Of a stretch of 64,000 nt of DNA, positions 1-29,594 are shown piece after piece (position 1 is the stretch's first letter; each line of letters starts with the position of its first letter). Location: the NCBI RefSeq assembly GCF_054482595.1, contig NZ_CM137008.1, one strand, 5' to 3'. Both the position numbers and the translations under genes were made by a program. The notes beneath the pieces were generated by a model, which was not told the origin of the DNA, did no database searches, and saw nothing but the letters and a program-made list of their open reading frames with translations.

Positions 1-67
1 TTTTTCAAGTGAAATTCAGCAAGAGATTTCATAAAAGTGTCCTGATAATTAATTCTTTAATAAGTAG

Positions 68-349
68 TTAATCGTTTTTCTTTTGAATAACGAAGGTGGC
101 CAGACTATTGATACTGCGCATATAGGACGGGTCGTCACTTTCGCTGATCTTGATATCAAATACTTTATCCAGCAGAACGACAATTTCCGTTGCATCGACG
201 GAGTCCAGTTTAAAACCATTACCAAACAGCGCAGTATCATCATCAATTTGCGCTTCATCGCGTTGAATATTCAGTCGCTGGATGATCTCCGTTTTAATGG
301 TCATCAGAACTTCTTTACGCTGTTCAATAGCGTCATTCATGGTAGACAT
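68..349 (-). CDS. stand-alone acyl carrier protein
   Basis: 93-aa ORF; phosphopantetheine-attachment-like motif KLDSVDATEIVVLL (Ser in DSV) resembling ACP consensus DSLDTVEL; SD-like AAGAGAG upstream of ATG. Confidence 0.75.
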   Translation of the reverse strand: MSTMNDAIEQRKEVLMTIKTEIIQRLNIQRDEAQIDDDTALFGNGFKLDSVDATEIVVLLDKVFDIKISESDDPSYMRSINSLATFVIQKKND

Positions 350-370
350 AATATTTACTCTCTTATTGGA

Positions 371-919
371 TTACTTGGTTTCACGGAAATTGATAATGGT
401 GCCCTGACTAATCAGCTTTTTACCGACGTACGCGGTCACGGAATAGTGTTTAAAGCCACTGGCATCCGAAAAAGCCAATTTGCTGACAACATCAATAGAA
501 TCACCCGGATAGGCGATATCTTTAAATTTCAGGTTCTGAGCAGCCAGCACGCCGCGTACCTGGCTGCGCCGGGTACGGATAATCTCCAGCATTTCAGGGC
601 GGTGAATGCGTGCGTGAATATCACGTAACGACTTCAGCTCTTCCTCAAAACGTTCGCGCCAGATATCGCAAATGTCGGTCAGGAAAGAGAGATACTCGCT
701 GGCCTGGCCGAAGATTTCCGAAATAATCACCCCGGGCATAATCGGATCTTCCGGGAAATGCCCCAGTAGATACGGTTCGTTATAGGTGACGTGTTTCACG
801 ACACTGACAAAGCCATTTTCACCGTATTTATAATCTGCAATTTTATCGACCATCAGCAGCGGCTGACGCCAGCCGCCCATTTCGAGGAAGATTTTCGAAG
901 GAATCGTGTATTTAGACAT
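371..919 (-). CDS. 3-hydroxyacyl-ACP dehydratase, FabZ/FabA-like hotdog fold
   Basis: 182-aa ORF with LLGHFPEDPIMPGV motif matching the FabZ/FabA active-site His region; 3 bp from the upstream reductase stop. Confidence 0.7.
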   Translation of the reverse strand: MSKYTIPSKIFLEMGGWRQPLLMVDKIADYKYGENGFVSVVKHVTYNEPYLLGHFPEDPIMPGVIISEIFGQASEYLSFLTDICDIWRERFEEELKSLRDIHARIHRPEMLEIIRTRRSQVRGVLAAQNLKFKDIAYPGDSIDVVSKLAFSDASGFKHYSVTAYVGKKLISQGTIINFRETK

Positions 920-922
920 AAA

Positions 923-1684
923 TCACCGCATGACCAGGCCGCCATCGATAACGATGGTCTGGCCGACAATGTAGCTGGAGGCAGAGGAACTTAAGAAGAC
1001 GATGGTGTTCGCCACTTCTTCACATTTCCCCAGACGGCGTAACGGGATGGTACTGGTTACCGCACGGACCACTGCGCGGGATACTTTTTTCACCATTTTC
1101 GATTCAATCATTCCCGGTGCGACCGCGTTGACGCGCACGCCCCAAGGTGCCATTTCTGCTGCCAGCGTGCGGGTGAAGCCGAGGATCGCCCCTTTTGACG
1201 CGCTGTAATTCGCCTGACCGACGCTGGGGATCAGCGCTGCAATAGAGGCAACGTTAATAATGGCGGGATTTTCTGCCGCACGAAGCAGCATCAGCGCGTC
1301 TTTCGTCAGACGGAAAATGCTGAACATGTTGGTTTCGATAACCTGGGTGAAATCCTCATAGCTCATCGAGGCAAACAGGCTGTCTTTAACGATGCCCGCG
1401 TTATTCACCAGCACATCAATCTTGCCAGCTTCGCGCTCTATCTGTTCGCACAATGCGCTCACGCTCTGGGGGCAGGCGAGATCGCACTGCACAATATGCA
1501 GTTTATCGCCTGCCGGATGGCTTGCTTTCAGCGTCGTTAATTGCACGTCGTTGGATTTATAAAGCGCATAAACATCGCAGCTCTGCTCCAGATATTTTTC
1601 GCAAATACCCAGCCCAATATCACCACTGGCTCCTGTCACCAGTACGGTTTTTTCATTTAAATCATTATATTTGTACATATTCAT
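923..1684 (-). CDS. short-chain dehydrogenase/reductase, FabG-like 3-oxoacyl-ACP reductase
   Basis: Rossmann motif TGASGDIG and catalytic YSASK (YxxxK) in translation; start set at internal Met (MNMYKY) to avoid overlap with upstream gene; ORF track gives 923..1720. Confidence 0.75.
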   Translation of the reverse strand: MNMYKYNDLNEKTVLVTGASGDIGLGICEKYLEQSCDVYALYKSNDVQLTTLKASHPAGDKLHIVQCDLACPQSVSALCEQIEREAGKIDVLVNNAGIVKDSLFASMSYEDFTQVIETNMFSIFRLTKDALMLLRAAENPAIINVASIAALIPSVGQANYSASKGAILGFTRTLAAEMAPWGVRVNAVAPGMIESKMVKKVSRAVVRAVTSTIPLRRLGKCEEVANTIVFLSSSASSYIVGQTIVIDGGLVMR

Positions 1685-1697
1685 CACATATGTTGAG

Positions 1698-2066
1698 TTA
1701 ATAAACGATGACAGTCGCAATGGCGTGGGTACGGCAATGCGAAATACTCAGGGAGTTATTTTGCAACCCCTGCCCGATAAAAATTTCTTGTAGTCTTCCG
1801 GAAATAACGAAATAAGGTGCTTTGGCCGCATCATGCTTTATTTCAATATCCTGGAAACGTACGCCATCACGAAAACCACAACCAATCGCTTTAACTAACG
1901 CTTCTTTCGCCGCCCAGAATCCAGAAGCCCGTTCATAATCAGGTTCTGCAGGATTAATGAGTAAGCGCTCATGAGCAGTATAAACACGCTCATAAAAAGC
2001 CATCTCTCCATTAATAATGGCTTTGGTTATTCTGGCAATTTCAACAATATCTGTCCCTATTCTCAT
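1698..2066 (-). CDS. holo-ACP synthase (AcpS-family 4'-phosphopantetheinyl transferase)
   Basis: 122-aa ORF; [13 protein letters not shown] and [11 protein letters not shown] motifs align with E. coli AcpS ([21 protein letters not shown]). Confidence 0.8.
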
Positions 2067-2081
2067 TAGTCTCGTTATCCT

Positions 2082-3701
2082 TTACATTTGGTACGAAAAA
2101 TTAAAATTTACATTCACCCGATCAATATCTAATGTCGCCGGGTACTTTAATGGGGTAGAAACGGAAAAGTTATACTCAAGACTTTTTATGTTTCCATCAA
2201 TACCAACTGCCGCGCCCACCAGTGATTCATCGCCATAAGAAGCGTCCTGATACACTTGCCCAAAATCAAGACCGGCATAATAATTAGCTTTCATTCCAGG
2301 CAAAGGAAATGCCAGCGTGTTTTTTATATAAAAACCATCATTCCCTGACAAACCTACGCTATTTTCAAACCCGCGAATACTCCAACGATCGCCAACTGTA
2401 ATTTGATCTTGCAAAGTCAGTTCACGCGGTGCGTACTGGGCAAAAAAAGCGGTATTGTAATATCCATTCTCTATTTGTCGGGTATAGTTACCCTCAAAAT
2501 TAAAGATATTGCTTACCGGGCTAACGTCGCCATATTGCATATCCGGCGTTTTTTCACCACCGAACCAGGTTAAAAAGCGTTGCCACGAGAGGGTTGAATC
2601 CCAGAACTCGCCGGGTAACTGTTGCTTATAATTTAGCCCCAACTTGATATTTCCCATATCCCGCGCCTGTAATGTCAGCTCCTCACCATTAAGCGTGTAA
2701 TTCGACTTTCGTCGAATGAGTTCTGCACTCCCGGCGAATTTTTTTGTTTTATCGCGATAAACGGTACGCGTCGCCTTTGCGCTCAAGTATTCGCTGGTGC
2801 CAACATAATCCAGCGAGATGTACGAAAGCGGAATCACCTGCTGCGATTTACTTTTGCTATAGAAAAAGCCGTACTCCCAGTACCCCACCGGAATGGAATA
2901 ATAACTACTGACGTTTTCATACTGTCCGGTAGTACTACGCGTACCGGCGAGATAAAACAGATCCCCCATTTTCGCTGGATTAAACAGATAACCCACCGCG
3001 GTTGTCTGGTAACGGCCCGTTTCTTCATCGCCCCAATTATTGTAACTTGCCCGAACGCTCCAGTTTTTCCCCCGGTGTGTATCAATATGAACGATGCTGT
3101 AACCATCCCGTGTTCCCGGTTCAATATTAATTTTCACATCAACGTCAGGTACTCGCTGAAGATTTTCCAGCCCCTGTTCAATATCGCGAATATTGAGAAT
3201 ATCGTTACGCTGAAAAGGTAACATCCATTCACTGATATCATTACCTTCCACAATCGTTTTTTCTATCTTCCCGGCATTAACCTGGAAACGTAGCTTGCCT
3301 TTAGAAATATCCTGTGAAGGAATACTAATTCGCGTTGTGATATATCCGGCATTAATATAATAATCCTGCAAGGCAGCAGCAATTTTTTGCACACCAGCAC
3401 TACCGACACAGCGTCCGGTAACTGCTTTATGTACTTCAGAAATCAACTGACCACCCAGAAAGTTATCTTCCAGTTCAATCCGATTAATGATAAAGCAATT
3501 CTTTTCCTGCGGCAGATCACCCAGAGTAAACGCATTACGTTGTGCATTTGAGTAAACATCTTTTTTTTCTAATTTATGCGCGCGCAACGTGCTTTCATCT
3601 GCATTTTTTTGCTGCTTGATCAAATTATCAAGACTGTCTTTCGCTGCAACTTGAAAACAACAAAGAATGAGCAGCAAACCAAAATTAAATCGTAATTGCA
3701 T
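2082..3701 (-). CDS. two-partner secretion outer-membrane transporter, TpsB (ShlB/FhaC/HecB family)
   Basis: 539-aa ORF with N-terminal signal peptide, POTRA-like region and C-terminal beta-barrel with RGF-type motif (WSIRGFENS); ends in aromatic-rich C-terminus. Confidence 0.85.
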   Translation of the reverse strand: MQLRFNFGLLLILCCFQVAAKDSLDNLIKQQKNADESTLRAHKLEKKDVYSNAQRNAFTLGDLPQEKNCFIINRIELEDNFLGGQLISEVHKAVTGRCVGSAGVQKIAAALQDYYINAGYITTRISIPSQDISKGKLRFQVNAGKIEKTIVEGNDISEWMLPFQRNDILNIRDIEQGLENLQRVPDVDVKINIEPGTRDGYSIVHIDTHRGKNWSVRASYNNWGDEETGRYQTTAVGYLFNPAKMGDLFYLAGTRSTTGQYENVSSYYSIPVGYWEYGFFYSKSKSQQVIPLSYISLDYVGTSEYLSAKATRTVYRDKTKKFAGSAELIRRKSNYTLNGEELTLQARDMGNIKLGLNYKQQLPGEFWDSTLSWQRFLTWFGGEKTPDMQYGDVSPVSNIFNFEGNYTRQIENGYYNTAFFAQYAPRELTLQDQITVGDRWSIRGFENSVGLSGNDGFYIKNTLAFPLPGMKANYYAGLDFGQVYQDASYGDESLVGAAVGIDGNIKSLEYNFSVSTPLKYPATLDIDRVNVNFNFSYQM

Positions 3702-7602: not shown

Positions 7603-7863
7603 TAACGTTTTCCTTATTGATGCTATTCATTTTGGACATGCAGATCACTTTTGATGACTCACGGAATATCAGCAAAAATGATTGCGGCAAATCCTATCAC
7701 CAGGCGCAATAAAAAATCACGAAAAATAAGCTGAAATAAGGACTCAAAAAACAACTAAGAGTTATTGTTTTTTCATCGAACGGCGAAGTACCTAACTTAC
7801 TAAAACACAATAATTTAAAAGTTTCCCATCCTTCCTCCTTGGGTGAAAAAAATCCAATTTAGA

Positions 7864-7914
7864 GGATGTCTGAAATGATATGTAGTTTTCTGTACGACAT
7901 CATTTCAGACATCC
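7864..7914. repeat. perfect 16-bp inverted repeat (GGATGTCTGAAATGAT / ATCATTTCAGACATCC) with 19-bp spacer
   Basis: Read directly from sequence at 7864-7879 and 7899-7914; lies ~260 bp upstream of tpsA start in a 1.4 kb AT-rich intergenic region. Confidence 0.6.
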
Positions 7915-8993
7915 GAATAAAACAACAAAGTTGGTGAGCTACAATTAATTTAAATCTTGTCATTTGATTAACAAAGCATCAGCATTACTGCATCTTATTC
8001 TCTATATCTTTTACGTCGGGGTAGATTCGTTATGGTCATTACGGGCAGGCACCATTTCATTATATTACCATTTGCATTCACGCTTGTAACCCTTAAGAGT
8101 TATATAAAAGGAAATAGTTCTTGCTCATGGTAATACTGAGATCGGATTAACCATGAGGTTAGCTATATAGAGAGAGCTTTGGCTTTGCGACAATTGGCTT
8201 AAGCAGCCACATTATGTCTGGCTTATCGTTGAAAGATAGAAAGATGGGCAAAACGGTTTTACAAGGTTTCATTCCCATCTAATAGCAATCACCGCTATAC
8301 ATCATCCCTTAACGTACTCTGGCCTTCATAAAAATGTTATTCAAAATTAAAGATTGTAATGATTTTCATAATGTTGTTATTATTTTGCAACAAATAAATC
8401 TAACACAATGATTATTAGCTATTTTTTATTAGTTAAGAGGAGTTGTTTTTTACAGACTGCGCTATAATTCCGCTCATTTTTCACCACAGGAAAAGCTGAA
8501 GTAATCTTAAATGACTGTATTAACCCTTTTCTCCGCTGCCAGCACTCTTATATATCGTTGTTTTATTCTTATAAAAATGGTTTTTTTGACATAAAAAGTA
8601 ATAGGTTCAGCCATTATGCAGAATTTACAACCTGATAAAATCGCAAAAACCCTCCTTACCCAGAATAAAAATCTGATCATCATCTTTCGGTAAGAATTAA
8701 ATTACTATATTACCGTTCAACATCAGTATGAATGAAAATTCAATTGTTATACATGTGATGAATGTCATATATTGTGCTCATCGATTGCAGGACATCGCTA
8801 TTCTTTTAGAGATACAGATATCACGCTGTTACTCTCTATATAAAGAACACACAAAGATTAGTTGTGTTACTGCAGTTGTTATGTCGCATATGGAAAGCCC
8901 ATTGTTACATCTTTAGTAAAAAGATTTATTCACTTTCAAAATTTTTACTGCATGAAGATGGGCTGTTTTGCTGCAAGCAATTGAGTTAGTGCA

Positions 8994-9617
8994 ATGAACA
9001 AGAACTTACTAACAAGGGTAATTATCATTTCGGATGATCTATATTACCTTCAGGGATTAAGTGCAAAACTAGGTCACCATTATCGTTTTTTTATTGAGTG
9101 TTTTTTTTGTTCTCAAAATGCATGTAATAATGACCTAAGTACACTTAGATTTGATAACCGCTTTACCAAAAACGTACTTCTTGTCGCAGTGGATGACGTA
9201 AGTATACTTGCAAAACTGCCAGATTTGGCCAGGTTTTTAATGATTGTTTCACTAAGAAAGATGAAAAACAGAAATATCTTCTTTTCACTTTCAGAGCAAA
9301 CATTCATTAGCCGATATATAAAATTGAATAAACTCATTACTTTGATTAAAAGCACTGATAAAGACCAGCAAGTCAGGCAGGTGACTCTGACAAGGTATGA
9401 GTGGGATATCTATTACTTATATTTTAAGATAGATAACAAAAGAATATTGCACACCCTGCTAAAAAAGGATGTCAAGTATATTAGTCACTATAAAATATCA
9501 GTTTTTAACAAGTTTGAAATTGCTTGTGATAGTGATGGCTTTTACATTTTCAAGGCACTTATACAGTTAAGGAGATTTACCGGTTTTAAAAACGTCAGAT
9601 TGTATCAATTGCATTAA
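8994..9617 (+). CDS. putative fimbrial operon regulator (LuxR/MatA-like, tentative)
   Basis: 207-aa AT-rich ORF immediately upstream of the pilin gene; C-terminal LTRYEWDIYYL...ISVFNKFEI loosely resembles a LuxR-type HTH; architecture parallels ecpR/matA-type regulators; weak. Confidence 0.4.
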   Translation: MNKNLLTRVIIISDDLYYLQGLSAKLGHHYRFFIECFFCSQNACNNDLSTLRFDNRFTKNVLLVAVDDVSILAKLPDLARFLMIVSLRKMKNRNIFFSLSEQTFISRYIKLNKLITLIKSTDKDQQVRQVTLTRYEWDIYYLYFKIDNKRILHTLLKKDVKYISHYKISVFNKFEIACDSDGFYIFKALIQLRRFTGFKNVRLYQLH

Positions 9618-9659
9618 TTAACTCGTTCTATATTAACTCTAAATTTCAAGGATATTATT

Positions 9660-10220
9660 ATGTTTTCTACTTTCAAAAAAGCAGCTCTGCTGGCAGCTAT
9701 TGCATTACCTTTTTCAACTATGGCTGCGCCTACAGTCACTTTTCAGGGTGAAGTAACCGATCAGACCTGTTCCGTAAATATCAACGGTCAAACCAATTCA
9801 GTAGTATTGATGCCGACCGTAGCCATGGCTGACTTCGGTGCAACTTTAGCTGATGGTCAGAGCGCAGGCCAGACGCCGTTTACGGTTTCTGTGTCTAACT
9901 GCCAGGCTCCAACTGGTGCAGATCAGGCAATCAACACCACCTTCCTGGGCTACGACGTTGACGCTAACACGGGAGTTATGGGAAACCGTGATACCAGCAG
10001 CGACGCGGCGAAAGGCTTTGGCATTCAGTTAATGGATTCCAGCACTTCTGGTAACCCAGTAACTCTGGCTGGCGCGACTAACGTACCGGGTCTGACCCTG
10101 AAAGTTGGCGATACTGAAGCCAGCTATGACTTCGGTGCGCGTTACTTCGTTATCGATAGCGCAGCTGCCACTGCCGGTAAAATTACCGCTGTCGCAGAAT
10201 ACACCCTGAGCTACCTCTAA
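9660..10220 (+). CDS. fimbrial major subunit (pilin)
   Basis: 186-aa ORF with signal peptide MFSTFKKAALLAAIALPFSTMA, conserved Cys pair (DQTCSV / VSNCQA), Gly/Thr/Ala-rich, C-terminal beta-strand YTLSYL. Confidence 0.8.
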   Translation: MFSTFKKAALLAAIALPFSTMAAPTVTFQGEVTDQTCSVNINGQTNSVVLMPTVAMADFGATLADGQSAGQTPFTVSVSNCQAPTGADQAINTTFLGYDVDANTGVMGNRDTSSDAAKGFGIQLMDSSTSGNPVTLAGATNVPGLTLKVGDTEASYDFGARYFVIDSAAATAGKITAVAEYTLSYL

Positions 10221-10284
10221 TTAATCTACTGGCTGGCAGTAAATGTCAGCCAGTATTTCTTCGCACAATTAATAGTGATTTTTC

Positions 10285-11007
10285 ATGGACATGGAAAAGA
10301 TAAGAATGAACATTTTTGCATATTTACTGGTACTTGTATTTTCCATGAGCATGAGCAGCAGCGCGTTTGCCAGCGTGGTAATGACCGGAACCCGTATTAT
10401 TTTCCCTGGTGACGCAAAGGAAAAAACCATCCAGTTGCGAAATACCAGCGATCAGCCCTATATCATTAATATCCATGTTGAGGATGAACGTGGTTCTGAC
10501 AAGAATGTACCGTTTATGCCAACCCCGCAGACATTTCGCATGGAAGCTGCCGCAGGTCAGGCGTTACGCCTGCTCTACACAGGTGATAATTTACCGCAGG
10601 ATCGCGAGTCTGTTTTCTGGTTTAGTTTCAGTCAACTACCTTATCTGAATAAGAACGATAAAAGTCAGAACCAGCTCATCCTGGCCCTGACTAATCGAGT
10701 CAAAATTTTCTATCGTCCCAGCTCAATTGTCGGTAAATCCAGTGACGCGCCAAAAAACCTGACTTACCAGGTAAAACAGAACCGCATTGAAGTGACGAAT
10801 CCCACGGGCTATTACGTCGTGATTCGCGCCGCTGAACTGCTTAATAACGGTAAAAAAGTCCCCCTCGCGAATTCCGTCATGATTGCTCCTCAAAGCACAA
10901 CTGAATGGACACTACGCTCTGGCATCAGCGTCGCTCCCGGTGCGCAGATTCATTTAGTGACCGTCAATGACTATGGCGTAAATGTCACGTCTGAGCATGC
11001 CTTATAA
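10285..11007 (+). CDS. periplasmic fimbrial chaperone (PapD-like)
   Basis: 240-aa ORF with signal peptide and typical chaperone motifs (RIIFPGD, LPQDRESVFWF, KIFYRP); exact start uncertain (Met at 10285, 10297 or 10312). Confidence 0.8.
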   Translation: MDMEKIRMNIFAYLLVLVFSMSMSSSAFASVVMTGTRIIFPGDAKEKTIQLRNTSDQPYIINIHVEDERGSDKNVPFMPTPQTFRMEAAAGQALRLLYTGDNLPQDRESVFWFSFSQLPYLNKNDKSQNQLILALTNRVKIFYRPSSIVGKSSDAPKNLTYQVKQNRIEVTNPTGYYVVIRAAELLNNGKKVPLANSVMIAPQSTTEWTLRSGISVAPGAQIHLVTVNDYGVNVTSEHAL

Positions 11008-11059
11008 GCTCTTTCCCCTTTTTTGAGCGGTATCCTTTTTCACGCACGAGTATGTCGAG

Positions 11060-13582
11060 ATGAATAAATCCGTTGTGTCAATTTCTGCGGCAATATTGGT
11101 TTTACTCTGCCAGCCGGTTATGGGGAAAGAAATCTCACCCGCTACACCGTCAGATGAAGACAACTACACCTTTGACCCGCAACTCTTCCGCGGCAGCAGA
11201 TTTAGTCAGTCGTCATTGGCAAAACTGACAACTCGTGAGTCTGTTGCACCGGGCAATTATAAAATGGATATCTATACCAACAATAAGTTGTCAGGTAGTT
11301 GGAATGTCACGTTTAAAGAAGCCGCTGATGGTCGCGTTCTGCCCTGCCTGACGCCTGAAGTCGCGGACGCGATAGGCCTCAAAACAGGGGAAGATAAGGG
11401 TGAAAAAGATCCGGTCTGTACCTTTGCTCAGGAACTCGCTCCCGGCATCACCAGCCAGACACAGTTGTCACAACTGCGCCTTGACTTGTCGGTGCCTCAG
11501 AGTCAAATGATTAGTCGCCCTCGCGGCTATGTCCCCCCCAGCGAGCTGGATACCGGAGCATCGCTGGCGTTCATGAATTATATTGCCAACTATTACAACG
11601 TTGCCTATTCAGGGCAGAATGCTCATAGCCAGCGTTCGCTATGGGCATCATTTAATGGTGGCATCAACCTTGGTGCCTGGCAATATCGTCAGTTATCCAA
11701 CATGACCTGGGATAATGACAAAGGGAATCAGTGGAACAATATTCGTAGCTATTTGCAACGCCCGCTGCCCGCCATAAATAGTCAATTAATGATAGGGCAA
11801 CTTATCACCAGCGGAAGATTTTTCTCTGGACTCAGTTATCACGGCGTTAGTCTCGCGACCGATGAACGTATGCTGCCGGACTCCATGCGCGGCTATGCGC
11901 CGACTATTCGCGGCGTGGCTGCAACAAACGCCAGAGTCTCGGTAATGCAAAACGGTCATGAAATTTATCAGACTACCGTGGCTCCAGGCCCTTTCGAAAT
12001 AAACGACCTATACCCCACCAGCTACAGCGGCGATCTGGATGTCACCGTTACGGAAGCTAATGGCGCAGTCAGTCGTTTCAGTGTCCCCTTTTCAGCCGTA
12101 CCAGAATCGATGCGTCCAGGAACTTCCCGTTATAACGTGGAAGTAGGTAAAACGCAGGATAGCGGTGATGACTCGATGTTTGGTGACCTCACCTGGCAGC
12201 ACGGGATGACTAATACGCTGACATTTAACAGTGGCTCGCGTATCGCTGATGGCTACCAGGCGCTGATGCTTGGCGGAGTCTATGGCAGTACGCTGGGGGC
12301 ATTTGGGGCAAACCTCACTTGGTCCCATGCGCGTGTTCCTGAAAGCGAAGCGCAGAGTGGTTGGATGTCGCAATTAACCTGGAGTAAAACTTTCCAGCCA
12401 ACGTCAACCACCGTCTCCCTAGCAGGTTATCGATACTCTACCAGCGGCTATCGTGATCTGGCTGATGTGCCGGGAGAGCGTCAAGCTGCCAGCAATAAAC
12501 AGTCATGGGACTCCAGCCAGTGGCGTCAACAGTCGCGCTTCGATCTTACGTTAAGTCAGAGCCTTGCGAATTACGGCAACCTGTTTGTGTCAGGTTCAAC
12601 ACAGAACTACCGTGGCGGCAAGAGCCGTGATACCCAGCTTCAGTTAGGTTACAGCAATAGCTTTAGCCATGGCATCAGTATGAACCTTTCCGTCGGACGC
12701 CAAAGAATGGGCGGCTATAAAGACAATTCTGATGATATGCAGACGGTAACGTCCCTTTCATTCTCATTCCCACTTGGCGGCAATGGACCTCGTGTACCAA
12801 GTCTTAGCAACAGCTGGACCCATTCAACTGACGGTAGCTCGCAATTACAAAGCTCGCTAACCGGAATGCTTGATGAAGCGCAGAGCACCAACTACAGCCT
12901 GAACGTCATGCGCGATCAACAGTATAAGCAGACGACGCTAAGCGGAAACATGCAAAAACGTTTTTCACAAACAACCGTCGGATTGAACGCATCGAAGGGC
13001 CAGGATTACTGGCAGGCTTCCGGAAACGTACAAGGTGCGATGGCCGTACATGGTGGCGGCGTTACTTTCGGACCTTATCTGGGTGAAACGTTCGCCCTGG
13101 TCGAAGCTAAAGGCGCTGAAGGTGCAAAAGTCTATAACTCCAGTCAGCTGGAAATTAATGACAGTGGTTATGCGCTTGTTCCGGCAGTAACGCCCTATCG
13201 CTACAACCGTATATCTCTTGATCCACAAGGAATGGATGGCGATGCCGAGTTGGTCGACAGTGAAAAACAGGTAGCACCGGTTGCAGGTGCGGCGGTGAAA
13301 GTAGTCTTCCGTACCCGTCCTGGTAAAGCGCTGCTGATTAAATCCCGCATGGCAGATGGTTCGGAACTGCCAATGGGAGCCGATGTGCTGGATGAGAATA
13401 ATACAGTCGTCGGTATAGCCGGTCAGGGGGGGCAAATTTACCTCCGCACAGAACAGACAAAAGGCCATTTGTCAGTTCGCTGGGGTGAAGGTGCTAACGA
13501 TAGCTGCCAATTGCCCTTTGATATCAGCGGGAAAGACAGCAATAGCCCTATCATCCGCCTGAATGAAACCTGTCAGTCTTGA
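11060..13582 (+). CDS. fimbrial outer-membrane usher
   Basis: 840-aa ORF, signal peptide, size and position between chaperone and adhesin genes typical of ushers. Confidence 0.85.
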   Translation: MNKSVVSISAAILVLLCQPVMGKEISPATPSDEDNYTFDPQLFRGSRFSQSSLAKLTTRESVAPGNYKMDIYTNNKLSGSWNVTFKEAADGRVLPCLTPEVADAIGLKTGEDKGEKDPVCTFAQELAPGITSQTQLSQLRLDLSVPQSQMISRPRGYVPPSELDTGASLAFMNYIANYYNVAYSGQNAHSQRSLWASFNGGINLGAWQYRQLSNMTWDNDKGNQWNNIRSYLQRPLPAINSQLMIGQLITSGRFFSGLSYHGVSLATDERMLPDSMRGYAPTIRGVAATNARVSVMQNGHEIYQTTVAPGPFEINDLYPTSYSGDLDVTVTEANGAVSRFSVPFSAVPESMRPGTSRYNVEVGKTQDSGDDSMFGDLTWQHGMTNTLTFNSGSRIADGYQALMLGGVYGSTLGAFGANLTWSHARVPESEAQSGWMSQLTWSKTFQPTSTTVSLAGYRYSTSGYRDLADVPGERQAASNKQSWDSSQWRQQSRFDLTLSQSLANYGNLFVSGSTQNYRGGKSRDTQLQLGYSNSFSHGISMNLSVGRQRMGGYKDNSDDMQTVTSLSFSFPLGGNGPRVPSLSNSWTHSTDGSSQLQSSLTGMLDEAQSTNYSLNVMRDQQYKQTTLSGNMQKRFSQTTVGLNASKGQDYWQASGNVQGAMAVHGGGVTFGPYLGETFALVEAKGAEGAKVYNSSQLEINDSGYALVPAVTPYRYNRISLDPQGMDGDAELVDSEKQVAPVAGAAVKVVFRTRPGKALLIKSRMADGSELPMGADVLDENNTVVGIAGQGGQIYLRTEQTKGHLSVRWGEGANDSCQLPFDISGKDSNSPIIRLNETCQS

Positions 13583-13597
13583 TACAGAGAAAACCCG

Positions 13598-14932
13598 ATG
13601 TCTAAATCGACTTTTTTACACATTCTGATTAGCTCCATCATATTGGTGGCACTAATACAATCATCCGCCTGGGCTAACTGTACAAACACACAGATAGGTC
13701 AAACTGAAGATGGTCGGACAGCGCTTATTGAGTTCGGAAAAATTAATATGACCGACACCTATTTTGCGCCAGCAGGTTCACTCCTCGCGACAACGGTCGT
13801 ACCTCCCACTAACTACACATCAGGTGGCGCGACAGGAAGCTCCGTATTGTGGGAATGTGATGCAACAGATTTGCCAAACATCTATTTTCTGGTCGCTACC
13901 AATGGCGACGACCGCGTGGGGGGCTTTTATGATGCAGGCGGGCCTGATGGTTTGAGTGATGTCTATGCCACCTGGTTCGCTTTTGTCGGTCTCAAACAGA
14001 CCATGGCGGGCGTGACGCTTGGTCGTTACTGGAAGAAAGTGCCCATCACCAGTTATGCCACTCAGGGAACTAAAATCCAGATCCGCTTACAGGATATCCC
14101 TCCTCTTCATGCTGAGCTTTATCGCATCAGTACACTACCTGATACATCAGCAACAACAAGTTGGTGCGGTAATAATAATACAGATGGTAGTGGAGTCGGA
14201 TTCGCAAAACCTTCCGGTACAATCTATAACTGTGTTCAGCCCAATGCCTATATTCAGCTTTCCGGTACCAGCGGCATTTTATTTGGTCATGATGAGCCCG
14301 GCGAAGATAGTTCTGTTCATTGGGATTTCTGGGGGGCTGATAATGGTTTTGGTTACGGAATGCGATCGGCAAATCGACTCTACAACAATGCCACCTGCGT
14401 TGCCCGCAGCGCCACGCCGTTAGTATTGCTACCGACAATTGCAGAAGCACAACTGAATGCGGGCATGGAAAGTACCGGTAATTTTAATGTCCGCGTCGAG
14501 TGTAGTAACTCGGTTCAATCAGGGATTAGCGATACTCAGACAGCATTAGGAATCCAGGTGTCTGAAGGTGCATATACAGCGGCGCAAAAACTGGGGATTA
14601 TCAATAGCAACGGCGGCGTCAGCGCCCTGGTCTCTGATAATTATGACGCAGTAGAGATGGCAAAGGGCGTTGGGATCTACATTTCTAACAGTGCTCACCC
14701 CGATACGGCGATGACGCTGGTTGGTCAACCGGGCATCGCGAAGTTAACCCCCGGAGGAAATGCAGCGGGGTGGTATCCTGTATTTGAAGGGGCAACATTA
14801 GAAGGTGCGACTCACCCCGGATACTCCAGCTATAGTTACTCTTTTATCGCCCGGTTGAAGAAACTGCCAAATCAGACAGTCAGTGCGGGAAAAGTGCGGG
14901 CAACGGCTTATATATTGGTGAAAATGCAATGA
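13598..14932 (+). CDS. putative fimbrial tip adhesin / minor subunit
   Basis: 444-aa secreted protein (signal peptide) located after usher; two-domain size typical of tip adhesins; overlaps next gene by ATGA. Confidence 0.5.
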   Translation: MSKSTFLHILISSIILVALIQSSAWANCTNTQIGQTEDGRTALIEFGKINMTDTYFAPAGSLLATTVVPPTNYTSGGATGSSVLWECDATDLPNIYFLVATNGDDRVGGFYDAGGPDGLSDVYATWFAFVGLKQTMAGVTLGRYWKKVPITSYATQGTKIQIRLQDIPPLHAELYRISTLPDTSATTSWCGNNNTDGSGVGFAKPSGTIYNCVQPNAYIQLSGTSGILFGHDEPGEDSSVHWDFWGADNGFGYGMRSANRLYNNATCVARSATPLVLLPTIAEAQLNAGMESTGNFNVRVECSNSVQSGISDTQTALGIQVSEGAYTAAQKLGIINSNGGVSALVSDNYDAVEMAKGVGIYISNSAHPDTAMTLVGQPGIAKLTPGGNAAGWYPVFEGATLEGATHPGYSSYSYSFIARLKKLPNQTVSAGKVRATAYILVKMQ

Positions 14933-15618
14933 AATCCGTTTTGCTGCTCTTAACCGTCTTGTTCGTACAGTCAGTGGAAGCCGGCATCATGCCGGCTTCT
15001 TCACGGATGATTTATCGCGATGGCGATCGGGAAAAGACGCTGATGTTGGTCAATACCAATGACTACCCGGTACTGGTGCAAAGTTGGGTAGATAATGGTG
15101 AAAGTTCCCCAGAAGCTGCTTCTCCCCCCTTTGTGGTGCTGCCACCGGTTTTCCGCCTGGCTGCGAGACGAACACAGGGATTGCGGATAATCTATAATCA
15201 TGACCCACTTCCCCAGGATCGCGAATCTGCATTCTGGTTAAATCTTTATGAAATGCCGCCAGAAACTCCCCATCAAGATCCCACACATTTAACGCTGGCA
15301 ATGAATACGCAACTTAAAGTCTTTTACAGACCTAAATCTGTAACTATGACACCTGAAGAAGCTATGCGTAAAATAAGTTGGCATTTGGGTAACGACGGCA
15401 GCAGCAGCTATATTGAGCTTAATAACCCAACACCACTGAATATCTCTTTCACCTCCATCAGCATTGGGACTACAAAGGTGCAGCAAGAAAGCGATATGAT
15501 GATAAAACCCTTCAGTCAACGACGGTACTGGTTAGCAAGTAATAACGTTAGTGGGATCGTTACTGCGACATATCTCGATGATAATGGTGCACAGATAAAG
15601 CAACAATTAGCGCAATAA
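14929..15618 (+). CDS. second periplasmic fimbrial chaperone (PapD-like)
   Basis: 229-aa ORF; motifs RMIYRDGD, LPQDRESAFWL, KVFYRP parallel the first chaperone. Confidence 0.75.
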   Translation: MKSVLLLLTVLFVQSVEAGIMPASSRMIYRDGDREKTLMLVNTNDYPVLVQSWVDNGESSPEAASPPFVVLPPVFRLAARRTQGLRIIYNHDPLPQDRESAFWLNLYEMPPETPHQDPTHLTLAMNTQLKVFYRPKSVTMTPEEAMRKISWHLGNDGSSSYIELNNPTPLNISFTSISIGTTKVQQESDMMIKPFSQRRYWLASNNVSGIVTATYLDDNGAQIKQQLAQ

Positions 15619-17232: not shown

Positions 17233-18045
17233 ATGATCTACATTATAAATGATGAAGTAAGATTCAACTCATCATCTAATAAGTTAACATCACTCCTTAC
17301 ATCAGAGGAAGTGATACTCAATTATCCTGCGGGAAAATGCTTAAAGTTACTTTTAGATAACGCTTATAGTGTCGTGTCACACAATCAATTCTTTGAAAAA
17401 GTCTGGAGCGATAGCAGTGCCGAAGTCGCAACCAACACTTTATATCAAAATATATCGATGATAAGGCGTTCCTTTCGTGAAATCAGCTCAGCGACGATAT
17501 TTAATGATGTTATCAGAACGGTGCCACGTAAAGGCTTCAAAATCAATGAAGAAATCAACATAACTGTTCTCGACAATAATCACAATGAGAATGAAAGTGT
17601 TGAGAGTGAAGAGAATGGCACCCATACTGAAAATATAAATAAAAATCACGTTGCAAAAGGTATATTTACCACAAAGAATACATTGCTTATAGTTTCTTTT
17701 TTTGCAGCATGGGGGATAGTGTATATATCTTCTTATTTTTTCGATATGGCTTTTCAAAGCAAATCCCACACTATAAAAAAAATAGATGCTTTCTCAAATT
17801 ATGCTCAACACCCTACTCAGGAAGGGTGTAGCTATTTCTATGACAATAGATATTTTAATTCTGTAGACATGTTATCACCGATTATTGAAAAATTGCAGAA
17901 AATGGAAATTAACTGCAAAATACATCCTTACATTTACATTGCAACAAATGATAGCATGAGCGGGTTTTATGCTTTCACCTGTAGTCAGATGTTAAACTCT
18001 GAATCACCAAATAATTGTAATTCTCTCTATTATAAAGCGGAGTAA
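17233..18045 (+). CDS. ToxR/CadC-like membrane-anchored transcriptional regulator (OmpR-type winged helix + TM + periplasmic domain)
   Basis: N-terminal wHTH resembling CadC/ToxR (VVSHNQFFEKVWSD...TVPRKGFKI), single predicted TM helix (LLIVSFFAAWGIVYISSYFF), C-terminal periplasmic region; SD AAGG upstream. Confidence 0.65.
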   Translation: MIYIINDEVRFNSSSNKLTSLLTSEEVILNYPAGKCLKLLLDNAYSVVSHNQFFEKVWSDSSAEVATNTLYQNISMIRRSFREISSATIFNDVIRTVPRKGFKINEEINITVLDNNHNENESVESEENGTHTENINKNHVAKGIFTTKNTLLIVSFFAAWGIVYISSYFFDMAFQSKSHTIKKIDAFSNYAQHPTQEGCSYFYDNRYFNSVDMLSPIIEKLQKMEINCKIHPYIYIATNDSMSGFYAFTCSQMLNSESPNNCNSLYYKAE

Positions 18046-18049
18046 TCAT

Positions 18050-18541
18050 ATGACTCAAAGATATTTTCTATTTGCGGGAATAATTTTATGTGCTTTTATT
18101 GCAGCAATTCTGAGCCATATTGCGTTTCATCATGCCAATGAACCAGCAGAGCAAAACATATCATGTAATGCCCATGTTATTAATTTCACCGATCATACGA
18201 AAATGGATCAATACTTTTCGTTAAATATGATTTCTGAAAATAACACAGGAAACATGTATCTCACGGGTGCATACACGGTAAATGGAAAAAAAATGGGTTT
18301 CATCCGCCGATATGTGAGTTTTACATACAAGAAATTCCGTGATACCGTTTATTTCACCACTGTTAAAATACAAAAAATACAAAAAGATGATAACATTAGT
18401 GATGAAATCCTTGAAAATATCACTTCTGATTTTTTCATAAAAGTAGACACCTCAATTAATTTTTATGTTACACGTCAAAATGATTACAACTACATATTCT
18501 CTACAGGCAGGACACCACGCTTCATATGTATTTCCCACTAA
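18050..18541 (+). CDS. small membrane-anchored periplasmic protein, possible ToxS-like partner
   Basis: 163-aa ORF 4 bp after the regulator; N-terminal TM helix (YFLFAGIILCAFIAAIL); function inferred only from position. Confidence 0.35.
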   Translation: MTQRYFLFAGIILCAFIAAILSHIAFHHANEPAEQNISCNAHVINFTDHTKMDQYFSLNMISENNTGNMYLTGAYTVNGKKMGFIRRYVSFTYKKFRDTVYFTTVKIQKIQKDDNISDEILENITSDFFIKVDTSINFYVTRQNDYNYIFSTGRTPRFICISH

Positions 18542-28529: not shown

Positions 28530-29594
28530 TTAACTGTATGCATGCAGCGTACGTTGGCAAAGTGCCGAACGTACGCAATCCTCTTTACCGAACCGGACGA
28601 TCCCGACCATTTCATCTTCTTCGAAACGTTCCAGCGCGTCACTTAATCCGGAGCACACGCCGCGAGGCAAATCGCATTGCGTGATATCACCGTTGACGAT
28701 AACCGTCACGTTCTCCCCGAGGCGGGTTAAAAACATTTTCATTTGCGCGGCAGTCACATTCTGCGCCTCGTCAAGAATGACGACTGCATTTTCAAAGGTA
28801 CGTCCACGCATATAGGCGAACGGCGCAATTTCCACCTTCCCTATTTCCGGTCGCAGGCAGTACTGCATAAAGGAAGCCCCTAAGCGCCGGACCAGCACGT
28901 CGTAGACCGGGCGAAAATAGGGAGCAAACTTTTCTGCGATATCTCCAGGTAAGAAGCCAAGATCTTCATCGGCTTGCAGAACTGGACGGGTGACGATAAT
29001 CCTGTCGACATCCTTATGTATCAGGGCCTCTGCCGCTTTTGCTGCGCTGATCCAGGTTTTTCCGCACCCGGCTTCGCCCGTGGCGAATATCAGCTGCTTA
29101 CTCTCAATAGCCTTCAGATAGTGCAATTGCGCTTCATTTCGCGCGAGGATGGGCGAGGTATCGCGACTGTCGCGGGCCATACCAATGGCTTCTACGCCGC
29201 TCATCTGCACAAGCGAGGTGACCGATTCTTCTTCACGCTGCTTATGGCTGCGCGAATCCCGTCTCAGCACACGTTTTGCCTCGCGACGAGCTTTGATCAC
29301 TGCTTTTTGTCTTCCCATGGAGAGCACCTTGAGTTGTTTGTATTCATCACACGCGCCGTTGGCAGCGCGATTATGCGCACGAACATCAGAGGGTTGGCTT
29401 CCTTGTAAGCCATAGTTTGCTTTTGGATAAAATGCCGAAAAACGGCTACGCGCACCGTTTACGGCGTCGGTAACACATGAAAAGAAAGGATGAGGTTGAA
29501 AATGCAAAGTGACGAGATGACTACCGGAGGAGAAAACTCCGCGAGTGGTGGCGCGTTGATTATCTAAAACATGTCCAGTACAGGACGTTACCAT
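28530..29594 (-). CDS. phoH: PhoH ATP-binding protein
   Basis: 354-aa ORF with Walker A GEAGCGKT; matches recalled K-12 PhoH. Confidence 0.9.
   Translation of the reverse strand: MVTSCTGHVLDNQRATTRGVFSSGSHLVTLHFQPHPFFSCVTDAVNGARSRFSAFYPKANYGLQGSQPSDVRAHNRAANGACDEYKQLKVLSMGRQKAVIKARREAKRVLRRDSRSHKQREEESVTSLVQMSGVEAIGMARDSRDTSPILARNEAQLHYLKAIESKQLIFATGEAGCGKTWISAAKAAEALIHKDVDRIIVTRPVLQADEDLGFLPGDIAEKFAPYFRPVYDVLVRRLGASFMQYCLRPEIGKVEIAPFAYMRGRTFENAVVILDEAQNVTAAQMKMFLTRLGENVTVIVNGDITQCDLPRGVCSGLSDALERFEEDEMVGIVRFGKEDCVRSALCQRTLHAYS

What the first reader, a model, noticed from the sequence alone, without database searches (positions are those of the whole stretch)
8994..15618. Accessory chaperone-usher fimbrial operon with two chaperones, a large putative tip adhesin and a private regulator
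Gene order regulator, pilin, chaperone, usher, 444-aa adhesin, second chaperone resembles the ecp/mat-type layout but the sequences are not EcpA-like. The locus lies in a position that K-12 does not occupy with fimbrial genes (as recalled), so it is a strain-variable adhesin module next to the TPS adhesin cluster.
Basis: partly seen in the sequence, partly recalled or inferred. Interest (0 to 1): 0.4.

Follow-up and report, generated by a model that had tools for sequence, protein, structure and literature searches.

The report
Known E. coli Loc6 (OI-47) fimbrial operon
This is an intact copy of a published but poorly studied accessory fimbrial operon of E. coli (the Loc6 or "type 3-like" cluster of O-island 47, best known from O157:H7), so the locus is not new, although the small gene in front of it does look like an unrecognised regulator.

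Summary

- **What is there.** Six intact + strand genes lie exactly at 8994-15618:
  - a 207-aa cytoplasmic protein
  - a pilin
  - a PapD-like chaperone
  - an 840-aa usher
  - a 444-aa two-domain adhesin
  - a second chaperone
- **Distribution.** 401 of 5,426 complete E. coli genomes carry it. K-12 has an IS3 at that site instead.
- **Not Ecp.** Only the gene order matches; there is no sequence similarity to EcpA, EcpC or EcpD.
- **What I added.**
  - The five structural genes form a fixed module in 35 loci from Enterobacterales, Acinetobacter and Xanthomonadales.
  - The adhesin's receptor-binding domain has an MrkD/Abp1D-like fold.
  - The adhesin stop and second-chaperone start overlap, and this is conserved. 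That suggests, but does not prove, a dedicated adhesin chaperone.
  - The 207-aa ORF is under purifying selection and is remotely homologous to LuxR-type regulators that flank sister operons. "Private regulator" is therefore plausible but unproven.

Interest is low.

The parts
7603..8993 (.). 1.39-kb AT-rich (33.6% GC) non-coding gap between the divergent otpA start and the 207-aa ORF. Presumed promoter and silencing region. Contains a perfect 16-nt inverted repeat at 7864-7914.
   Evidence: GC content. Repeats. Promoter-like hits are no more frequent than in shuffled sequence. Only the first ~170 nt next to otpA align with the syntenic locus L003.
8994..9617 (+). 207-aa cytoplasmic protein, 31.9% GC. 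Probably a cryptic LuxR/GerE-type helix-turn-helix regulator, with the HTH at about residues 128-186. From published locus-tag numbering it is probably ECs1281 (inference).
   Evidence: No Pfam or NCBIfam hit. Syntenic homologues are 55% and 53% identical, with no gaps between the two 207-aa proteins. pN 0.26 against pS 0.79. hhalign against five K-12 LuxR-type regulators: probability 79%, E 1.7e-5 at the HTH. hhalign against GerE-positive regulators beside sister operons: probability 85%, E 5.8e-6 over 149 columns. The protein is identical in EDL933.
9660..10220 (+). Major pilin, 186 aa, with a signal peptide and an N-terminal donor strand.
   Evidence: PF00419, 1.4e-14. First structural gene and followed by a stem-loop. 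99.5% identical to EDL933.
10227..10255 (+). 12-bp stem-loop just after the pilin stop codon. Likely an intra-operon attenuator or mRNA stabiliser that raises the pilin-to-assembly-protein ratio (inferred).
   Evidence: Terminator-like scan. The role is inferred by analogy with fimA and papA from general knowledge.
10285..11007 (+). Periplasmic PapD-like chaperone 1 (240 aa from the first start codon; 233 aa from 10306 as in RefSeq annotation).
   Evidence: PapD_N and PapD_C. Nearest solved structures are YadV 4.7e-34, CupB2 and FimC. The subunit-anchoring Arg (GTRIIF) and Lys (KIFYRP) are present in the alignment.
11060..13582 (+). [not shown]
13598..14932 (+). 444-aa two-domain tip adhesin. 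N-terminal receptor-binding domain is about residues 27-262; C-terminal pilin domain is 263-444.
14929..15618 (+). Periplasmic PapD-like chaperone 2, 229 aa. Its start overlaps the adhesin stop by 4 nt (ATGA).
   Evidence: PapD_N and PapD_C. Nearest solved structures are CupB2 2.9e-33 and YadV. 31% identical to chaperone 1. The overlap is seen in the sequence and a start codon at that position is found in 23 of 35 sister loci, with a 1-nt overlap in 5 more.

Best explanation
**What it is.** Window 8994-15618 is an intact copy of the E. coli Loc6 / O-island 47 'type 3-like' fimbrial operon. This is a classical gamma4-clade chaperone-usher system.

**How it most likely works**
- *Shown from domain content:* all five structural proteins are exported, and both chaperones are standard PapD-like proteins.
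- *Inferred:* the chaperones hold the subunits by donor-strand complementation. Chaperone 1 serves the 186-aa pilin.
- *Inferred:* chaperone 2 is translated together with the 444-aa adhesin and is probably its dedicated partner.
- *Inferred:* the adhesin-chaperone complex primes the 840-aa usher. Pilin subunits then polymerise beneath it, giving a simple two-subunit fibre with an MrkD/Abp1D-like receptor-binding domain at the tip.
- *Inferred:* a stem-loop after the pilin gene keeps pilin in excess over the assembly proteins.

**Control (all inferred)**
- The operon is probably kept silent through the AT-rich 2 kb at its 5' end.
- It is probably switched on by the 207-aa protein encoded there, a very divergent LuxR-type helix-turn-helix protein.
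- Input may come from the neighbouring c-di-GMP genes (the EAL protein I take to be VmpA, and DgcT) and from the ToxR-like regulator GrvA.

**Likely role (inferred).** The adhesin is the best-conserved component across plant, insect, soil and gut bacteria. Its target is therefore more likely a widespread ligand or a biofilm or surface function than a host-specific receptor.
For: **Identity**
- 98.0% nucleotide identity over 7.1 kb to O157:H7 (including EDL933) and O55:H7 CB9615, and 100% to O157:H16 Santai.
- Same gene set and lengths in EDL933.
- loc6 = ECs1276-1280 within S-loop 71 / OI-47, beside otpAB. It is also listed as 'F18 (OI-47)'.
- OI-47 spans z1528-z1556 and includes grvA.

**Machinery**
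- Complete domains in every gene.
- Nearest solved chaperones are YadV, CupB2 and FimC.

**Adhesin**
- Confident two-domain model.
- Matches to receptor-binding domains of MrkD, Abp1D, GafD, UclD, AtfE, YhlD and YehD, and to the full two-domain adhesins LpfD, CupB6 and PapG.
- Allelic variation is concentrated in the receptor domain.

**Selection and conservation**
- dN/dS is 0.04 for the usher and 0.06 for the adhesin against the divergent syntenic locus L003.
- The five-gene order is complete in 31 of 35 loci from other genera. The other four have a truncated or fragmented gene, partly at contig ends.
- The adhesin is the most conserved component, mean 57.9% identity.

**Coupling.** The ATGA overlap of adhesin stop and chaperone-2 start is found in 23 of 35 loci, and a 1-nt overlap in 5 more.

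**Regulator**
- Purifying selection and conserved position.
- hhalign matches to LuxR-type HTH regions.
- hhalign match to GerE-positive regulators beside sister operons.
- Distant family members sit between an EAL gene and a chaperone-usher operon.
Against: **No experimental support for function**
- No expression or assembly data were found.
- The only functional test found, a Sakai loc6 deletion on spinach roots, showed no phenotype.

**Signs the locus is dispensable**
- Some strains carry IS insertions in the usher.
- O145:H28 keeps only part of the operon.

**The regulator call is weak**
- The 207-aa protein fails every direct family test: Pfam, NCBIfam and PDB profile searches.
- Its single-sequence structure model is poor, pLDDT 46.
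- The call therefore rests on profile-profile matches at 79-85% probability.
- The gene is missing from most sister operons.

**Unproven assignments**
- The division of labour between the two chaperones is inferred only from gene overlap. No complex model or experiment supports it.
- Promoter-like and terminator-like hits in the region are no more frequent than in shuffled sequence.
- H-NS silencing is inferred from base composition alone.
Confidence: 0.8

Rival explanations
1. The operon is a cryptic, effectively silent relic in E. coli. It is carried along with the O-island 47 segment, is not used, and is slowly decaying.
For: - No phenotype for the Sakai loc6 deletion on spinach roots.
- IS3/IS1203, ISEc8 and ISEc20 insertions occur in several strains, and O145:H28 has a truncated version.
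- The AT-rich 5' region is typical of silenced, horizontally acquired DNA.
- K-12 lost the whole segment at an IS3.
Against: - 376 of 401 carriers keep at least 80% of the segment.
- All six reading frames are intact, with identical lengths, in lineages 2-4% apart.
- Purifying selection is strong against a distant relative, dN/dS 0.04-0.12.
- The adhesin receptor domain shows allelic diversification. That pattern is the kind expected for an exposed, functional protein.
Confidence: 0.25
2. The 207-aa ORF is not a regulator of this operon. It could be an unrelated, fast-evolving cytoplasmic protein or an island passenger. Real control would then come from GrvA, c-di-GMP, H-NS or other global factors.
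For: - No direct domain hit and a poor structure model.
- Most of the 35 sister operons lack it.
- Its GC content (31.9%) differs sharply from the structural genes (46-51%), so it was joined to the module separately.
- It diverges far faster than its neighbours, 55% against 87-90% identity.
- A ToxR-like/YqeJ-like pair also accompanies the Serratia and K. oxytoca operons.
Against: - It keeps the same position and orientation, directly upstream of the pilin gene, in three diverged versions of the locus.
- The C-terminal 82 residues are the best-conserved part, dN/dS about 0.06. They align in the same register with the HTH of RcsB, FimZ, YqeH and the five-regulator profile.
- It shows near-full-length profile homology to GerE-positive regulators beside sister operons.
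- Distant relatives also sit directly upstream of chaperone-usher operons.
Confidence: 0.3
3. The 444-aa protein is not a receptor-binding tip adhesin for host tissue. Instead it would mediate bacterium-bacterium or abiotic-surface attachment (biofilm), as has been reported for EcpD and for CupA fimbriae (from general knowledge).
For: - It is the most conserved of the five proteins across bacteria from plants, insects, soil and gut. That is unusual for a host-specific adhesin.
- The genomic neighbourhood is dominated by biofilm and c-di-GMP genes: pgaABCD, dgcT and an EAL gene.
Against: - The fold of the N-terminal domain matches ligand-binding domains of MrkD, Abp1D, GafD and UclD. As I recall, these bind host matrix proteins or glycans.
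- Within E. coli the receptor domain is the variable part.
- The two readings are not mutually exclusive.
Confidence: 0.35

Closest known systems
[not shown]
   Same: It is the same locus. 98.0% nucleotide identity over the whole 7.1 kb, with the same six genes, lengths and flanks: otpAB on one side; SDR, grvA, a YqeJ-like gene, an EAL gene and dgcT on the other. The 207-aa protein is 100% identical.
   Different: The window comes from a non-O157:H7 lineage (100% identity to O157:H16 Santai, XH990 and others). A few amino-acid changes: 12 in the usher, 8 in chaperone 2 and 2 in the adhesin. The published 'loc6' covers five genes and does not include the 207-aa ORF.
Salmonella enterica Stb fimbriae (stbABCDE)
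   Same: The closest curated families are those NCBIfam attaches to Stb. The 444-aa protein's only hit is PRK15247, labelled StbD (441 positions), at E 1.8e-32. The usher's best hit is PRK15248, which I take to be the Stb usher model. The StbB model PRK15249 is hit by both chaperones. Gene order is the same from my knowledge of the operon: pilin, chaperone, usher, ~440-aa subunit, second chaperone.
   Different: All scores are far below the equivalog cut-offs (698 against 996; 112.6 against 363; 117.8 against 550). It is a paralogous lineage, not Stb. Much closer relatives (50-70% identity) exist in Serratia, Klebsiella, Proteus, Erwinia, Acinetobacter and Pseudomonas.
Klebsiella type 3 fimbriae (mrkABCDF with mrkHIJ)
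   Different: Here there are two chaperones and no MrkF-like minor subunit. The receptor domain is about 235 aa against about 160 aa. No PilZ-type MrkH equivalent was seen. Sequence identity to MrkD1P is only 13% in the structural alignment.
Pseudomonas aeruginosa CupA fimbriae (cupA1-A5 plus PA2133)
   Same: As recalled, the same five-gene order, with a large fourth-gene subunit and a second chaperone. As recalled, the following gene PA2133 encodes an EAL protein; one search confirms only that cupA1-A5 and PA2133 form one gene set. CupB2 is among the nearest solved chaperones.
   Different: Sequence kinship to CupA was not shown. No P. aeruginosa protein appeared among the 120 best relatives of a Pseudomonas family member. 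Any relationship is therefore more distant than the 50-70% identity family described here.
E. coli common pilus Ecp/Mat (ecpRABCDE)
   Same: Gene order only: regulator, pilin, chaperone, usher, large adhesin, second chaperone.
   Different: BLASTP finds no similarity between the ushers (E 1.4), the adhesins (E 2.6) or the pilins (E 0.43). The 207-aa protein shows no significant match to MatA/EcpR.

Membership tests
Classical chaperone-usher fimbrial operon | Usher with N-terminal, pore and C-terminal domains | tested here: met
   PapC_N 5.7e-31, Usher 1.1e-151 (full profile) and PapC_C 1.8e-21.
Classical chaperone-usher fimbrial operon | PapD-like periplasmic chaperone with both Ig-like domains and the subunit-anchoring Arg/Lys pair | tested here: met
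   Both chaperones have PapD_N and PapD_C. Alignments to YadV and CupB2 show the conserved GTR / SSR and K(I/V)FYRP motifs.
Classical chaperone-usher fimbrial operon | Exported pilin-fold subunits, including a two-domain adhesin | tested here: met
   PF00419 in both subunits. The two-domain model has pLDDT 90. Fold matches to LpfD, CupB6 and the MrkD receptor domain.
[not shown]
   98.0% nucleotide identity across the segment. Same flanks between otpAB and SDR-grvA-EAL-dgcT. Protein identities 96.5-100%.
Gamma4 usher clade (Nuccio and Baumler scheme) | Usher groups with gamma4 ushers in a phylogeny | not tested
   [not shown]
Salmonella Stb fimbriae | Scores above the NCBIfam equivalog cut-offs for the Stb usher, StbD and StbB models | tested here: not met
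   698 against 996; 112.6 against 363; 117.8 against 550.
Ecp/Mat pilus | Sequence similarity to EcpA, EcpC and EcpD | tested here: not met
   BLASTP E-values of 0.43, 1.4 and 2.6. Only the gene order matches.
Type 3 (Mrk) fimbriae | mrkABCDF gene content: one chaperone and an MrkF minor subunit | tested here: not met
   Two chaperones and no third pilin-like gene are present. The Mrk gene content is from general knowledge.
P. aeruginosa CupA fimbriae | Detectable close homology of the large subunit to CupA4 | tested here: inconclusive
   No P. aeruginosa entry among the top 120 relatives of a Pseudomonas family member. No CupA4 sequence was available for a direct comparison.
LuxR/FixJ-type (GerE helix-turn-helix) regulators, for the 207-aa ORF | GerE domain at Pfam gathering score | tested here: not met
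   No hit even at E <= 10, for the whole protein or for its C-terminal 81 residues.
LuxR/FixJ-type (GerE helix-turn-helix) regulators, for the 207-aa ORF | Remote homology of the C-terminal ~55 residues to LuxR-type HTH domains | tested here: inconclusive
   - hhalign against RcsB: E 5.7e-4.
- hhalign against FimZ: E 0.019.
- hhalign against YqeH: E 0.015.
- hhalign against the five-regulator profile: probability 79%, E 1.7e-5.
- PDB profile search, RcsB C-terminal domain: E 0.43.
- Three distant homologues give sub-threshold GerE hits in the same place.
- hhalign against GerE-positive neighbours of sister operons: probability 85%, E 5.8e-6.

Sources. The evidence is consistent but below the level usually taken as proof.
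LuxR/FixJ-type (GerE helix-turn-helix) regulators, for the 207-aa ORF | DNA binding and control of the adjacent operon | not testable with these tools
   Needs reporter fusions, gel-shift or ChIP experiments.

The most novel reading that the evidence does not exclude
The 207-aa ORF may be the E. coli representative of a tiny, previously unrecognised branch of LuxR-type regulators. An exhaustive search of 1.8 billion proteins found 12 matches, about 11 of them plausible relatives.

This branch travels as a module: an EAL phosphodiesterase and a ToxR-like/YqeJ-like pair, placed next to chaperone-usher operons. If so, GrvA, the neighbouring EAL protein (which I take to be VmpA) and this protein would together form a dedicated c-di-GMP-linked switch for Loc6 fimbriae. 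The published effects of GrvA on LEE and acid resistance would then be secondary to an ancestral role in controlling the neighbouring adhesin.
Probability: 0.25. Interest if true: 0.45.

Novelty: already known. Interest (0 to 1): 0.2.

Why it matters
**For the scan.** This finding can be closed. It is a correct reading of a locus that is already catalogued and partly studied in O157:H7, not a new adhesin system.

**Limited residual value**
- Loc6 has no known ligand, expression condition or regulator.
- The analysis supplies concrete handles:
  - a confident adhesin model with an MrkD/Abp1D-like receptor domain;
  - two natural adhesin alleles;
  - a candidate regulator gene left out of the published 'loc6';
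  - a conserved five-gene family that spans plant, insect, soil and gut bacteria.
- It also shows that O-island 47 is not restricted to the O157:H7, O55:H7 and O145:H28 lineages, as the reviews state. It occurs in other E. coli from humans, poultry, pigs, fish and wildlife.

Tried and rejected
**Regulator: direct tests that found nothing**
- Pfam and NCBIfam scans of the 207-aa protein and of its C-terminal 81 residues.
- PDB profile search with three homologues.
- Single-sequence AlphaFold model: pLDDT 46, not usable.
- hhalign against CsgD or MatA alone: not significant, and aligned to a different region.
- BLASTP against MatA and YqeH: not significant.

**Intergenic region**
- I looked for an invertible promoter switch or phase-variation element in 7603-8993. 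There are no long flanking inverted repeats and no recombinase gene nearby.
- Promoter and terminator scans matched shuffled expectation.
- Rfam found nothing in or near the operon.

**Adhesin and family links**
- PDB sequence search with the adhesin family profile found nothing.
- An attempt to tie the family to P. aeruginosa CupA4 by homology search failed to show any P. aeruginosa hit.

**Literature**
- The Nuccio and Baumler review could not be read.
- A search for locus tags returned mostly noise, apart from the Sakai spinach study.
- The fimbria-glycan array paper does not mention this locus.

**Ecp membership** was rejected after direct comparison.


Full report
**1. The observation**

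| Coordinates | Length | Assignment |
|---|---|---|
| 8994-9617 | 207 aa | no family hit |
| 9660-10220 | 186 aa | pilin |
| 10285-11007 | 240 aa | chaperone 1 |
| 11060-13582 | 840 aa | usher |
| 13598-14932 | 444 aa | adhesin |
| 14929-15618 | 229 aa | chaperone 2 |

- Pfam gives a Fimbrial domain for the 186-aa protein.
- Both chaperones have PapD_N and PapD_C.
- The usher has a complete PapC_N / Usher / PapC_C set.
- The 444-aa protein has a Fimbrial domain only in residues 263-444.
- Nothing is frameshifted or truncated.
- The 207-aa protein has no Pfam or NCBIfam hit.

**2. What the locus is**

Sequence identity:
- Megablast against 5,426 complete E. coli genomes finds the segment in 401 of them, once each. 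In 376 the match covers at least 80%.
- It is 100% identical to O157:H16 Santai, XH990 and several human, poultry and environmental isolates.
- It is 98.0% identical to O157:H7 (including EDL933) and to O55:H7 CB9615.
- O145:H28 strains keep only part of it, and some strains carry IS elements in the usher.

Genomic context, in order:
- a fatty-acid/polyketide-type cluster
- a ShlB/FHA two-partner secretion pair
- the fimbrial operon
- an SDR gene
- a ToxR-like winged-helix gene
- a 163-aa gene
- an EAL gene
- dgcT and pgaABCD

K-12 MG1655 has dgcT | IS3D | ymdE' | ycdU | serX at this place, so the whole segment is missing there.

Published names:
- This is O-island 47 (z1528-z1556). It contains grvA (z1531). 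I take the adjacent EAL gene to be vmpA (z1528), from memory.
- The Sakai spinach study calls the cluster loc6 (ECs1276-1280), within S-loop 71 / OI-47, and calls the neighbouring secretion pair otpAB (ECs1282-1283). It reports that:
  - a loc6 deletion did not change spinach-root binding;
  - ECs1277 was induced at 14 C.
- The O145 genome paper lists it as fimbrial cluster F18 (OI-47).

**3. Family placement**

- NCBIfam's best usher model is PRK15248 (698 bits against a cut-off of 996).
- The only hit for the 444-aa protein is PRK15247, labelled StbD (E 1.8e-32; 112.6 bits against 363).
- The StbB model is among the chaperone hits. All scores are well below the equivalog cut-offs.
- The nearest solved chaperones are YadV, CupB2 and FimC. 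The two chaperones are 31% identical to each other.
- Direct BLASTP against K-12 EcpA, EcpC and EcpD finds nothing. The ecp genes do share the gene order.
- The ecp resemblance is therefore layout only. The operon is a classical gamma-type system most like Stb in curated families.

**4. The adhesin**

- Homologues at 50-70% identity over the full length occur in Serratia, Klebsiella, Pluralibacter, Proteus, Leclercia, Erwinia, Pantoea, E. albertii, Providencia, Arsenophonus, Pseudomonas, Acinetobacter, Aeromonas and Dyella.
- An AlphaFold model built on 40 of them is confident: pLDDT 90.2, pTM 0.81.
- Foldseek ranks the two-domain adhesins LpfD and CupB6 first, followed by pilin-domain matches.
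- No solved relative is found by sequence.
- Within E. coli there are at least two alleles. Strain ZF8-1 differs at 36 of 444 residues, 30 of them in residues 27-258. Its other five proteins are 95-99.5% identical to the window's.

**5. The conserved module**

- A scan of one genome per species returned 35 loci.
- An automated annotation shows the same order in every locus: pilin, chaperone, usher, ~440-aa adhesin, second chaperone. In 31 of 35 all five genes are complete. In the other four a pilin or usher is truncated or fragmented, partly at contig ends.
- The adhesin is the most conserved of the five, mean 57.9% identity. The usher is at 53.7%, the pilin 55.2%, and the chaperones 42.2% and 46.8%.
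- The adhesin stop and chaperone-2 start overlap by 4 nt (ATGA at 14929-14932). A start codon at that overlap is present in 23 of 35 loci, and a 1-nt overlap in 5 more.
- I read this as translational coupling and, by inference, a dedicated adhesin chaperone. This was not tested.
- A 12-bp stem-loop follows the pilin gene at 10227-10255.
- Against the divergent syntenic locus L003, dN/dS is 0.04 for the usher, 0.06 for the adhesin and 0.12 for chaperone 2.

**6. The 207-aa ORF**

Rarity and conservation:
- It is nearly an orphan. A word-indexed search found only E. coli copies and two relatives at 56% and 54% identity.
- Those relatives lie in the same position in syntenic loci.
- The alignment of the two 207-aa proteins has no gaps. 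Identity is 55%, while the neighbouring pilin, usher and adhesin are 87-90% identical.
- pN is 0.26 against a saturated pS of 0.79. The C-terminal 82 residues are the most constrained. It is therefore a real, fast-evolving gene.

Remote homology:
- An exhaustive HMMER search of 1.84 billion representatives added eight full-length distant relatives. Three give sub-threshold GerE hits at residues about 133-184.
- The family profile aligns its residues 128-186 with LuxR-type helix-turn-helix regions:
  - RcsB: hhalign E 5.7e-4.
  - RcsB C-terminal domain in the PDB: E 0.43.
  - FimZ: E 0.019.
  - YqeH: E 0.015.
  - Profile of RcsB, FimZ, CsgD, MatA and YqeH: probability 79%, E 1.7e-5.

Genomic association:
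- Distant relatives sit between an EAL gene and a chaperone-usher operon, with a divergent ToxR-like/160-aa pair.
- GerE-positive proteins of 183-206 aa lie next to the sister operons of K. oxytoca, a Citrobacter genome, Erwinia piriflorinigrans and Serratia.
- The 207-aa family matches these proteins over 149 columns, probability 85%, E 5.8e-6.

Conclusion for this gene:
- A cryptic LuxR-type regulator is the best reading. It fails every direct family test and has no experimental support.
- It is not part of the conserved five-gene module.
- Its 32% GC, against 46-51% for the structural genes, shows it was joined to the module separately.

**7. Neighbours**

- GrvA and the 163-aa protein are paralogues of K-12 YqeI and YqeJ (32% and 22% identity).
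- ToxR-like/YqeJ-like pairs also lie upstream of the Serratia and K. oxytoca operons.
- An OtpA homologue lies upstream of the Kosakonia operon.
- These recurring associations suggest a shared regulatory neighbourhood. They are weak hits and remain a lead only.

**8. Verdict**

- The locus is already known as Loc6 / OI-47 'type 3-like' fimbriae, so novelty is nil at the level of the finding.
- The regulator assignment, the adhesin fold and the conserved five-gene family are modest additions.
- Function, ligand and expression conditions remain unknown in the literature I could search.

Noticed in passing
window 7864-7914: Perfect 16-nt inverted repeat (GGATGTCTGAAATGAT ... ATCATTTCAGACATCC) with a 19-nt loop. 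It lies in the AT-rich gap between otpA and the 207-aa ORF. It could be a terminator, a small-RNA hairpin or a protein-binding site.
   Followed up: no
window 13598-14932 compared with L051 5900-7234 (E. coli ZF8-1): Two adhesin alleles exist within E. coli. They are 91.9% aa and 90.9% nt identical, while the flanking genes are about 97.5% nt identical. 30 of 36 substitutions fall in the receptor-binding domain. This pattern suggests recombination or diversifying selection.
   Followed up: partly
window 17233-18541; K-12 locus L014 5503-6787: GrvA and the downstream 163-aa protein are paralogues of K-12 YqeI/YqeJ (32% and 22% identity). A module of ToxR-like + YqeJ-like, EAL, a 207-aa-family protein and a chaperone-usher operon recurs in unrelated metagenomic loci (L010, L011, L012).
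   Followed up: partly
L002 9246-10847 (K-12 MG1655 1094245-1095846): K-12 has IS3D directly after dgcT, followed by the ymdE pseudogene and ycdU. This looks like the deletion scar where the O-island 47 segment lies in other strains.
   Followed up: partly
L050 (NZ_CP124742.1, EDL933 'plasmid unnamed1', 212 kb): A record labelled as a plasmid carries chromosomal O-island 47 together with dgcT. It is probably a chromosomal fragment mis-assigned in that assembly. It accounts for the single 'plasmid' hit in the genome survey.
   Followed up: no
window 28535-28728 and 55381-55459: Rfam gathering-score hits: Ysr251 (189 bits), near the 3' end of phoH by my coordinate conversion, and naRNA4 (82.5 bits).
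   Followed up: no
window 1-3701: The window starts inside an acyl-carrier / FabZ / SDR / AcpS cluster, followed by the ShlB-type gene that corresponds to otpB. In Santai the cluster continues upstream with ketosynthases, an ABC transporter and a LolA-like gene. I recall this layout from aryl-polyene clusters; that link was not tested.
   Followed up: no
L018 1525-4203 (Kosakonia sacchari): An OtpA homologue (phmmer score 1137 bits) lies upstream of, and divergent from, the sister fimbrial operon. The TPS-fimbria adjacency is therefore not unique to E. coli.
   Followed up: no
L051 8064-8847 (E. coli ZF8-1): The convergent SDR gene downstream of the operon is annotated as frameshifted in this strain.
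   Followed up: no
L041 and L045 (Acinetobacter calcoaceticus, A. stercoris): Variants of the module. L041 has a tandem duplication of pilin-chaperone-usher-adhesin before a single second chaperone. L045 has two adjacent adhesin genes.
   Followed up: no
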